DNA of 62,000 bases, counting the filler, from Thelocarpon superellum (Eukaryota): assembly GCA_026025795.1 (NCBI GenBank). It is 2 parts of 2 records of this genome, joined end to end, with 100 filler letters (N's around TTAATTAATTAA, not from the genome) between each part and the next. Parts side by side here need not be neighbours in the genome. Positions count along the whole stretch, not along the records: positions 1 to 30,961 come from JAPEUG010000195.1; 1 more part is not named here. One strand, given 5' to 3'. The notes beneath the pieces were generated by a model, which saw only the letters and a list, made by a program, of their open reading frames with translations, was not told the DNA's origin and did no database searches. Numbering within the stretch: the stretch's first letter is position 1; the number at the start of each line of letters is the position of its first letter. Positions 19,566-31,061 of this stretch are shown here, piece by piece. Position numbers and translations under genes: made by a program.

Positions 19566-20170
<605 letters not shown>

Positions 20171-21494
20171 ATGGGTCGTCTCTCCGGGGTTGTGGGGTAG
20201 CGGGGATTTCTCCGATCTCATGCCGCGTTGATCACGATCTGATAATCTGCGGCGGCGGGGCGGGGCGGATCTGGTTGTGCGTGTGAGACGGAGCTTCCCA
20301 TGCCTGGGTGTTTCGCGGTCTTCTTTGATATCACGCGTCATGGGATGGTTCTGGCTCTTGGCTCTGGCTTTCGGGGGCACATGTCTTCACGGTCTGCGGT
20401 TTTGTTTTCTTACTTCTCCACCCATCCATCGGTGTCGTGAGTGTGAGAGGGAGAAGGAGAATTCTGAGGGCCTGTACAATACTACTAAAGCTCCTGAATG
20501 AACGGGCGAAACATGACCAACATGACATTTGACTCTCATCGCCGCATGGCCTCCATCACCATGATCAATCTCAGCGCCTGCCTTGATGATTTGTATCCAC
20601 GGCTTCAGTCTTGTGACGCGTCCGCCTGGATCAAAGTGAGACGCGCTTCGATGTTGTACAAGCCACGAGGATTCACCCGGTGGCAAGAGCAGTAAGAGCG
20701 AGTAGTCATCAACGCGCGATATACGGAATATGCATAATAGGCGCGTCGGCAGGAAGGAAGGAAGCACGAGCGATCGGACACTACTGCTCGTACTAGTGAC
20801 ATTTGTTTACCTCTTTTACGACCCGTGTCTGGCGGAGAGGGAGATTGCTGATCGTTGTATACGTGTCGGAATATTTACGGGCAGCCGCTAACTTTATACT
20901 AACCACGCCATTATCACCACATAACAGCGTACCGTTCAGGCGGTAACTGCGATGGTACTGCCCTGTCTGTGCATGTTCCTGTTGTACTCGACCACCATCT
21001 TCTATCTCTTGAATACATCATACGAGAGTGGCTGGAAAATGTCCGTAGATGGTTGACCACCTAAAGAACTCCAGAGTGTCAGTCAAAAGTGTCGGAAATA
21101 AATAAACCCGGGACCGCGTACAGTGGCAGCTAACAAAGGAAACTTTTTTTCTCGAATATAATATTAAATTGTCGAGTAAATATACAATATTATATTTTCC
21201 CAAATTCACGACCCCGTGAAAACGGTGCAATACGACTGGGTCGACTCACTGTTCTAAAGCTGTCTTTGAACCGGCCGGAGAATCTCACCTCACGTCGCCC
21301 TAAGCCTTCGGGGCGCCGATTTCAACCCACTCGCTCACCCTCTCTCAACTAGACACGGGCAGGTGCACCAAGTGTTCGGAGCGCCAATTCTGGCCCCCTC
21401 ACTGCCCCCTTTCTCCGACACAGGCAGGCGCCGCTCGGTCAATGGAAGCGCCCGCGACCCCCAATTCGTGGACCCACAAGCATTCCGTTGATAA

Positions 21495-21698
21495 AGCTAC
21501 TCTCCTAATATAAATGTCTATTCCCACACATCGAAGGAATATGATCGAGCTCGATTCGAGACTTTTCTACACTGGCTTTGGAATGTATACACCATCAAGA
21601 AGACCAGCACGGTGACGACCTACTGGCGTCAGCTGAGTCAGCTCTACATCATGGCGCACGATGATATTGCTCAAGCCATAGGGCTATGTTTGCCTTGA
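21495..21698 (+). pseudogene. Fragment resembling the N-terminal part of a DUF3435 tyrosine recombinase (Starship captain-like)
   Basis: Stop-to-stop frame with no ATG ahead of the motif, reading KEYDRARFETFLHWLWNVYTIKKTSTVTTYWRQLSQLYIM. This matches my recollection of the FLxW...IKKxSxxxTYWRxLxxLY block of DUF3435 proteins. No catalytic domain is seen downstream. Confidence 0.6.
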
Positions 21699-22582
21699 GT
21701 ATGGCAATGTTCTTTCAAGTACACCTATACCAGAGCCAAAAGGGGTTAACGGCGATGAATTTTATAGTCGAGCGTCCGGGTTTGGTGTCGTCGTCCGACG
21801 GCACTGTGGCTACGGCGGCCGGCGCGCACGTGAGGCGCCTTGCCCAATTCGAGCCCTCAAGTACCGGATGTAGTTCTGTTGAAGTCCAGGCCTCACATGG
21901 CATGCCCACGTGACCTAGCAAAATGCTTGTAGACCGTGTAATAGCCCACTCCACCCAGAGGGAAATGACAACGCAGAGAACAAGTAAGAAGGCCAGCACC
22001 CATAGGTGCGGGGCATCAAGATCTCGGCCCACCAACAGTTTCACCGACCTGCATTATAACCATTATTTAATTCGCCCTTCTCGCCTCCTGTCACGTCTAT
22101 CTTTAGCAATACGGTGGTATAATTTACTTTGACTGTTGGTACGTATTATTATTTACATTCTACGAAGGCAGTATCACCTATCTTCCGGAAGTTCCCGTAT
22201 CGAATGTCTTCTTGCCTTTGGCGGAGGGTGATGAAGCTTTGGATATGCGTAGAGAATTTGGTAATGCTCTATTTTTCGCCTCGTAAATATTTTCCTCGCA
22301 GTATACTCCATGCTTTGGAAAATCCTATGCGGGCGACAAACCCGTGAATCAATCCATATCTGACGTGCCTGATCCACGAAGAAGAAATACATTCTCCACA
22401 TGTTGATTGTAATGGCGCCCCCATATCTCGAAGCGAAGAAAAGGCGTGGAAAGCTTGTGCCGGGAAAGAGATGGTATATTTTATTCAACCGCCGCTCATT
22501 TCGCCGCGATAAGATCCGTCTAACCACATGCAACCTGACCGGAGGAGAAAGAGAGATGAACGATATGATAGAATGACTACGT

Positions 22583-30961: not shown

Positions 30962-31061
30962 NNNNNNNNNNNNNNNNNNNNNNNNNNNNNNNNNNNNNNN
31001 NNNNNTTAATTAATTAANNNNNNNNNNNNNNNNNNNNNNNNNNNNNNNNNNNNNNNNNNNN
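30962..31061. other. Artificial contig-joining spacer (N44 + TTAATTAATTAA + N44)
   Basis: Exactly 100 nt and symmetric. The central palindromic 12-mer places TAA stops in all six frames. Confidence 0.95.

What the first reader, a model, noticed from the sequence alone, without database searches (positions are those of the whole stretch)
21495..21698. Relic of a DUF3435 (Starship captain-type) tyrosine recombinase between H2B and ATG4
Seen: a + strand stop-to-stop frame missing from the ORF track encodes FETFLHWLWNVYTIKKTSTVTTYWRQLSQLYIM (21555-21653), then loses the resemblance. Knowledge: DUF3435 tyrosine recombinases are the captain genes of giant Starship transposons in Pezizomycotina, and I recall an N-terminal FLxW...IKKxS..xYWRxLxxLY block in them. 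Inference: this is the scar of a Starship-like insertion that was later deleted or decayed inside an otherwise core gene block. A TTAC-N7-A string, the target pattern described for some Starships, lies about 700 bp upstream at 20807-20818, but it is short enough to occur by chance.
Basis: partly seen in the sequence, partly recalled or inferred. Interest (0 to 1): 0.7.

Follow-up and report, generated by a model that had tools for sequence, protein, structure and literature searches.

The report
Dead scrap of Starship recombinase gene
A piece about 130-160 bases long of a recombinase gene, of the kind that moves giant fungal Starship transposons, survives as a non-working fossil between two ordinary genes; it is an ordinary relic.

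Summary
The peptide is there and is a real captain relic. Window 21528-21653 matches residues 78-119 of ~700-aa DUF3435 proteins at 48-86% identity (19 of 23 tested). It misses Pfam PF11917 itself because that model starts near residue 160. Two relatives are listed by accession as Prometheus-family (fam05) captains in the starfish tables, and a modelled relative folds like Cre.

The relic is part of exon 2 only. It has no start codon and no catalytic domain, and no other captain DNA was found in the 2.4-kb interval. The TTAC-N7-A string is chance: 5 in the interval, 4.6 expected, and it is the Hephaestus target, not the one reported for Prometheus elements. No element ends, cargo or empty site were found, so 'scar of a Starship inserted here' stays unproven. 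A solo LTR lies 220 bp downstream, and two more lone captain scraps occur elsewhere in the genome. The scan has noted similar relics in other genomes. Ordinary fossil.

The parts
21528..21653 (+). Core of the relic: 42 codons of captain exon 2, equal to residues 78-119 (three helices of the N-terminal helical domain) of Prometheus-family DUF3435 recombinases
   Evidence: helices 75-81, 84-97 and 103-121 in the model of relative P0052
21495..21527 (+). Probable decayed 5' start of exon 2, including the intron-1 acceptor AG (21495-21496); one codon shorter than in relatives
   Evidence: anchored alignment to L010 and L011 beats random interval 33-mers at p 0.005 and 0.009 (a test chosen after seeing the match)
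21877..22037 (+). Solo LTR (TGTTG...CCAACA, 161 bp) with a decayed 5-bp target duplication; unrelated to the relic, shows the interval collects mobile-element debris
   Evidence: 3 copies in G000, 76-85% alike; copies L003 and L004 have perfect 5-bp duplications
21809..21859 (+). 51-bp piece 86% identical to one other place in the genome (L005); origin unexplained
20807..20818 (+).
19566..20170 (+). Histone H2B gene (left neighbour)
   Evidence: translation, recognised from knowledge; divergent H2A confirmed by PF16211/PF00125
22583..24226 (-). ATG4 cysteine protease gene (right neighbour, convergent with H2B)
   Evidence: PF03416 Peptidase_C54 in two exons

Best explanation
21495-21659 is a dead fragment of exon 2 of a Prometheus-family (starfish fam05, clade 1) Starship captain gene. 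The intact ancestor was a ~700-aa Cre-like tyrosine recombinase that cut its element out and put it in elsewhere. The fragment does nothing now: it has no start codon, 42-54 codons of the N-terminal helical (presumably core-binding) domain, and none of the catalytic residues. Shown: identity, position in the gene, absence of other captain DNA nearby. Inferred: it is most likely the last recognisable scrap of a captain-led element that once inserted in the tolerant space between the 3' ends of H2B and ATG4 and was worn away by deletions, as a solo LTR beside it and two other lone captain scraps in this 19-Mb genome suggest.
For: Homology: (48-86% to 19 of 23 relatives). Seven of 18 scanned hits carry PF11917, starting at residue 148-190, that is downstream of the relic. 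Family: QKX63180.1 (P0055, 66% to the relic) and KAG8531641.1 (P0057, 52%) are fam05 in Table S4 of PMC11162782; fam05 is Prometheus; median identity is 35% within and 26% between families (whole domains, so only a rough scale). In a tree the relic joins the path between these two proteins. Mechanism of the intact form: the model of P0052 matches Cre (best E 2e-5); captains are needed for movement (PMC10104507 passages). Dead: amino-acid-changing differences per site are 0.14-0.18 against L009/L010, versus 0.06 between those two, at similar silent divergence 0.57-0.67; 5 of 42 residues occur in none of 35 relatives. Genomic rather than cDNA origin: acceptor AG probably kept. Context: solo LTR; two other single-exon captain scraps, each alone in 8-9 kb.
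Against: Erosion in place should often leave several colinear scraps, but none of the rest of the captain gene was found by profile search at protein or DNA level, and 7 of 7 flank-versus-relative alignments were at shuffle level (p 0.135-0.955). The 3' 30 codons are well kept (1 private residue), which is odd if the rest was worn away slowly. No repeat-induced point mutation signal (TpA/ApT 0.6; only 138 bp). The tree had no other family as outgroup and the relic's exact position is unsupported (25/29 and 72/45). The best hits (74%) are tied to fam05 only by inference from isoform counts and scaffold numbers. An unrelated repetitive protein, P0010, ranked third (24% identity, 12 summed repeats).
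Confidence: 0.58

Rival explanations
1. The piece never belonged to an element at this site. A short stretch of captain DNA from elsewhere was pasted in as filler during double-strand break repair, or was carried in by another small mobile element.
For: Sharp 3' edge; no other captain or element DNA in the interval; good preservation of the 3' 30 codons; all three captain pieces found in the genome are lone stretches of about 130-230 bp; a second short piece shared with another locus lies 150 bp away (21809-21859).
Against: No target duplication or carrier element was recognised around it; the best inverted repeat in 20501-21900 is at shuffle level (p 0.46). Non-coding element DNA would be invisible to these searches, since the nearest captain DNA at hand is only ~75% identical, so the blank flanks are weak evidence. 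No donor copy was found in G000, which may be incomplete.
Confidence: 0.3
2. Assembly artefact: DNA of a co-occurring black yeast was joined into this contig.
For: The closest named relatives are from Chaetothyriales; the database labels the neighbouring gene's record as a metagenome-assembled genome; black yeasts live in lichen thalli (PMC13486527 passages).
Against: The piece lies mid-contig between two host genes, carries private changes in its 5' part, and sits among host-genome repeats. A chimera of only 130-160 bp is not what assemblers usually produce (inference).
Confidence: 0.05
3. The fragment has been kept by selection as a new small exon or peptide, for example a DNA-binding decoy against incoming captains.
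For: The frame is open for 67 codons, the acceptor AG is probably kept, and 29 of the last 30 residues occur in relatives.
Against: The only in-frame ATG is the last matching codon; amino-acid-changing differences are 2-3 times those between intact relatives; an open frame of 67 codons is common here (152 frames of 40 aa or more in 8 kb).
Confidence: 0.05
4. Chance resemblance.
For: No direct Pfam DUF3435 hit.
Against: E 2.8e-11 in a 1.84-billion library, iE 4e-17 to a captain profile, DNA match E 3e-19.
Confidence: 0.01

Closest known systems
Prometheus-family (fam05, clade 1) Starship captains, e.g. QKX63180.1 of Talaromyces rugulosus and KAG8531641.1 of Bacidia gigantensis (PMC11162782 Table S4)
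   Same: 52-66% identity over the relic to these two; 71-86% to Exophiala, Knufia, Rhinocladiella and Cladophialophora captains. Those relatives carry the YXXR motif typical of clades 1 and 3.
   Different: Only ~6% of the protein is left; no start, no PF11917 region, no catalytic residues, no element ends or cargo.
Hephaestus captain HhpA and its TTAC(N7)A target (PMC10104507)
   Same: Same superfamily and clade; Cre-like fold.
   Different: A different family; its target motif does not apply. Predicted Prometheus targets in A. fumigatus are A(N3)CTA(N17)T and A(N10)TACTTATTA(N)A(N6)A.
Derelict or degraded Starships (PMC11162782; remnants called common in PMC10104507; degraded Tangerine copy in PMC13486527)
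   Same: Non-mobile remains of a captain-led element in the host genome.
   Different: Those are mostly large and marked by repeat-induced point mutation; this is ~0.15 kb, 50% GC, with no such signal.

Membership tests
DUF3435 / Starship captain recombinase (as source of the fragment) | Sequence homology to PF11917-bearing proteins | tested here: met
DUF3435 / Starship captain recombinase (as source of the fragment) | Direct match to the PF11917 profile | tested here: not met
   the profile begins at residue 148-190 of relatives, downstream of the relic
DUF3435 / Starship captain recombinase (as source of the fragment) | Tyrosine recombinase fold in the full-length relatives | tested here: met
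   model of P0052 (mean pLDDT 68, pTM 0.45) matches Cre, E 2e-5, TM-scores low; no sequence-level match in PDB
Working captain gene | Full-length gene with core-binding and catalytic domains (R-K-H/Y-R-Y) | tested here: not met
   only positions 76-121 of 696 present in the window; no PF11917 match in G000, though that search's control was blank
Prometheus family (fam05) | Falls in the fam05 clade of the captain tree or scores best on its profile | tested here: inconclusive
   two relatives are fam05 by accession and the relic lies between them in a tree without other families; starfish family profiles not available
Starship element | Captain as first gene at the 5' end of a 20-700 kb element with cargo | tested here: not met
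   interval between the two stop codons is 2,412 bp; 0 of 21 other interval frames scanned gave a Pfam hit at the thresholds used
Starship element | Short direct repeats and terminal inverted repeats at the ends | tested here: inconclusive
   motif counts and inverted repeats at chance level; ends cannot be called without an empty site
Starship element | Empty site in a related genome | not testable with these tools
   no relatives of G000 are held; laid no reads
Hephaestus family | TTAC(N7)A target at the element edge | tested here: not met
   5 matches against 4.6 expected; relatives are fam05, not fam02
5S-rDNA-targeting Starships (Enterprise, Arwing, Voyager) | Broken 5S rDNA at the insertion | tested here: not met
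   no 5S match in the interval by Rfam or with the genome's own 5S
Solo LTR (21877-22037) | TG...CA ends, 5-bp target duplication, dispersed copies | tested here: met
   duplication perfect in 2 of 3 copies, imperfect in the window copy; superfamily not determined

The most novel reading that the evidence does not exclude
The scrap records a horizontal arrival of Prometheus-family Starship DNA from a lichen-dwelling black yeast (Chaetothyriales) into the Thelocarpon lineage. It is 71-86% identical to black-yeast captains but 57% to the captain of Vezdaea, recalled as a nearer relative of the host. More boldly: all three captain pieces in this compact genome are lone single-exon scraps with no mutation signature and no parent element, which would fit capture of short pieces of incoming foreign Starship DNA at chromosome breaks rather than decay of whole insertions.
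Probability: 0.12. Interest if true: 0.45.

Novelty: new member of a known kind. Interest (0 to 1): 0.13.

Why it matters
Little by itself. It shows that Prometheus-family Starships have reached a little-sampled lichen-associated lineage whose assembly shows no intact captain, and that scraps lying outside the Pfam DUF3435 model are missed by the usual captain screens. If the horizontal reading held, it would add one more case to the black-yeast-to-lichen-fungus transfers already reported (PMC13486527).

Tried and rejected
TTAC-N7-A as target: chance. 5S-rDNA insertion site: none in the interval. Inverted repeat 20822-20839 / 21342-21359 with a CCCG core, considered as element ends: 15 of 18 match, but the best inverted repeat in the region is at shuffle level (p 0.46), and the 2 other genome matches equal the 2 of the control; one lies inside an unrelated gene. 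A Tc1-like end at 21119-21139 (motif recalled): single copy. 20780-21240 and 21230-21530 are single-copy in G000. Exon 1, intron 1, later exons or UTR of the captain in the flanks: not found. Intact captain in G000: none found (genome may be incomplete, control blank). Viral contigs: 0 of 9 candidate stretches were relatives. Donor lineage by tree: unresolved. laid nothing, which leaves the empty-site and chimera questions open. Prometheus direct repeats from Table S13 of PMC11162782 could not be seen because the stored supplement is cut after S10. The tblastn steps printed nothing through a script error and were repeated. Earlier-findings look-ups by place and by sequence were empty.

Full report
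Observation. It lies in the 2,412-bp space between the stop codons of a histone H2B gene (ends 20170) and a convergent ATG4 gene (ends 22583). ATG4 and the divergent H2A were confirmed by Pfam; H2B was recognised from its translation (recalled knowledge). Window 1-30961 is contig C107 of G000, a 19.2-Mb assembly in 797 contigs. A neighbouring gene is 100% identical to a database record labelled Thelocarpon superellum, metagenome-assembled; NCBI places the genus in Pezizomycotina, Thelocarpales.

Identity. The peptide does not match PF11917 directly; its three Pfam matches are weak (E 0.015-0.086) and below cut-off. It does match longer proteins: 8 of 11 candidates (best E 5e-10) and 33 proteins (best 2.8e-11). 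I scanned 18 of these hits with Pfam: 7 carry PF11917, starting at residue 148-190; 7 short ones have no family; 1 has a weak unrelated match; 3 (P0010, P0034, P0037) are unrelated repetitive proteins. P0010 ranked third, at 24% identity over 12 summed repeats. Against 23 longer relatives the peptide hit 19, at 48-86% identity, always near residues 78-119; a profile of them scores window 21522-21659 at iE 4e-17. DNA identity to three metagenome captain genes is 73-76%. An AlphaFold model of relative P0052 (mean pLDDT 68) puts these residues in three helices of the N-terminal helical domain and matches Cre recombinase best (E 2e-5, low TM-scores). That the helices are the core-binding domain is inferred from their place upstream of the catalytic arginine motif.

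Family. P0055 is QKX63180.1 and P0057 is KAG8531641.1; both are fam05 in Table S4 of PMC11162782, and fam05 is the Prometheus family, clade 1. The best hits (74% over 42 residues; Exophiala spinifera, Knufia) share a 90% cluster with an E. oligosperma gene of four isoforms. I infer from isoform count and scaffold numbers that this is exooli1_139457-60, whose E. spinifera cluster-mates are fam05; this link is not by accession. In a maximum-likelihood tree of 17 relatives plus the relic, the relic joins the path between the two fam05 proteins and lies outside the Lecanoromycetes clade (100/100), but its sister group is unsupported and no other family was included.

Anatomy. In relatives the match lies inside exon 2. 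The relic probably reaches back to the intron-1 acceptor at 21495-21496 (p 0.005 and 0.009 against random interval pieces, a test chosen after seeing the match), so it came from genomic DNA. It stops abruptly after 21653-21659. The only in-frame ATG is the last matching codon. Nothing else of the captain was found: protein and DNA profiles gave one hit in the interval, and 7 of 7 flank alignments to L009-L011 were at shuffle level while the relic itself scored far above. Silent divergence to L009/L010 is 0.67 and amino-acid-changing divergence 0.14-0.18, against 0.57 and 0.06 between those two; 5 of 42 residues are seen in none of 35 relatives, 4 of them in the first 7 codons (the relatives were picked by a motif, which favours agreement in the 3' part). 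There is no sign of repeat-induced point mutation in 138 bp.

Target site and ends. TTAC-N7-A occurs 5 times in the interval against 4.6 in shuffles and 0.9 per kb on the contig. It is the Hephaestus target (PMC10104507); Prometheus elements of A. fumigatus have other predicted targets (PMC12153272). The loose Gnosis motif occurs 4 times and the Logos core not at all, which tells nothing. No 5S remnant and no inverted repeat above chance were found. No empty site could be tested: no relatives of G000 are held and laid no reads.

Surroundings. A 161-bp solo LTR lies at 21877-22037; it has 2 further copies, both with perfect 5-bp target duplications. A 51-bp piece at 21809-21859 has one look-alike elsewhere. 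Two more captain scraps exist in G000, at C151:24345-24548 and C159:3197-3361. They cover residues ~134-209 and ~121-189, are only 31-43% identical to these relatives, and are each alone in 8-9 kb, so they are probably not parts of the same gene copy. No intact captain was found (the control was blank and the assembly may be incomplete).

Reading. Identity as a captain fragment: about 0.97. Prometheus family: about 0.8. Non-functional: about 0.93. How it got here is open: erosion of an insertion in place is favoured (0.58) over capture of a small piece (0.3), because debris accumulates in this interval and non-coding element DNA would be unrecognisable at 75% identity; against it, no second scrap survives and the 3' codons are well kept.

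Literature seen. PMC11162782: passages, sections 20 and 23, supplement part 1 and searches; Tables S11-S15, including the direct repeats in S13, were cut and not seen, and may bear on the target-site question. PMC10104507, PMC12153272, PMC13486527, PMC12256816 and 10.1101/2025.02.28.640899: passages only. A search for Starship with Lichinomycetes listed one paper, which does not name Thelocarpon; this is not a full novelty search. Degraded Starships are described as common, and transfers between black yeasts and lichen fungi, including within Prometheus, are already reported. Six earlier notes of this scan describe similar dead captain fragments in other genomes (unchecked, not used as support).

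Verdict. Real, correctly named, ordinary: a new member of a known kind, interest 0.13.

Noticed in passing
window 21877-22037; L003:1501-1662; L004:1420-1582: Small solo-LTR family, 3 copies, 76-85% alike, no full-length parent found in G000.
   Followed up: yes
window 21809-21859 and L005:1501-1551 (G000:C499:5139-5189): 51-bp GC-rich piece with a CACGTG core, 86% alike; in L005 it lies upstream of what looks by eye like an Anp1-type mannosyltransferase gene. Captured promoter piece or tiny repeat; unexplained.
   Followed up: partly
L007:1477-1704 (G000:C151:24345-24548, -): Second lone captain scrap, start of the next exon with an acceptor-like AG, only 31-34% identical to the fam05 relatives, perhaps another family.
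   Followed up: partly
L030:3164-3361 (G000:C159): Third lone captain scrap; about 450 bp away on the other strand lies what looks by eye like a hydrolase/NB-ARC immune-receptor gene, a type often carried by Starships, though on the side that would be outside the element.
   Followed up: partly
window 21140-21200: Short AT-rich patch with an 11-bp perfect inverted repeat (21155-21165 / 21186-21196); single copy.
   Followed up: partly
window 30962-31061: Two runs of 44 N around a 12-base TTAA repeat: an artificial joint; sequence beyond it is not on contig C107.
   Followed up: no
L029:1-897: Long frame with tandem copies of a charged coiled-coil-like peptide repeat.
   Followed up: no
L011:581-588 and L009: The metagenome captain genes used as references are themselves damaged or have sequencing errors: a one-base frameshift in an A run in L011.
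   Followed up: no
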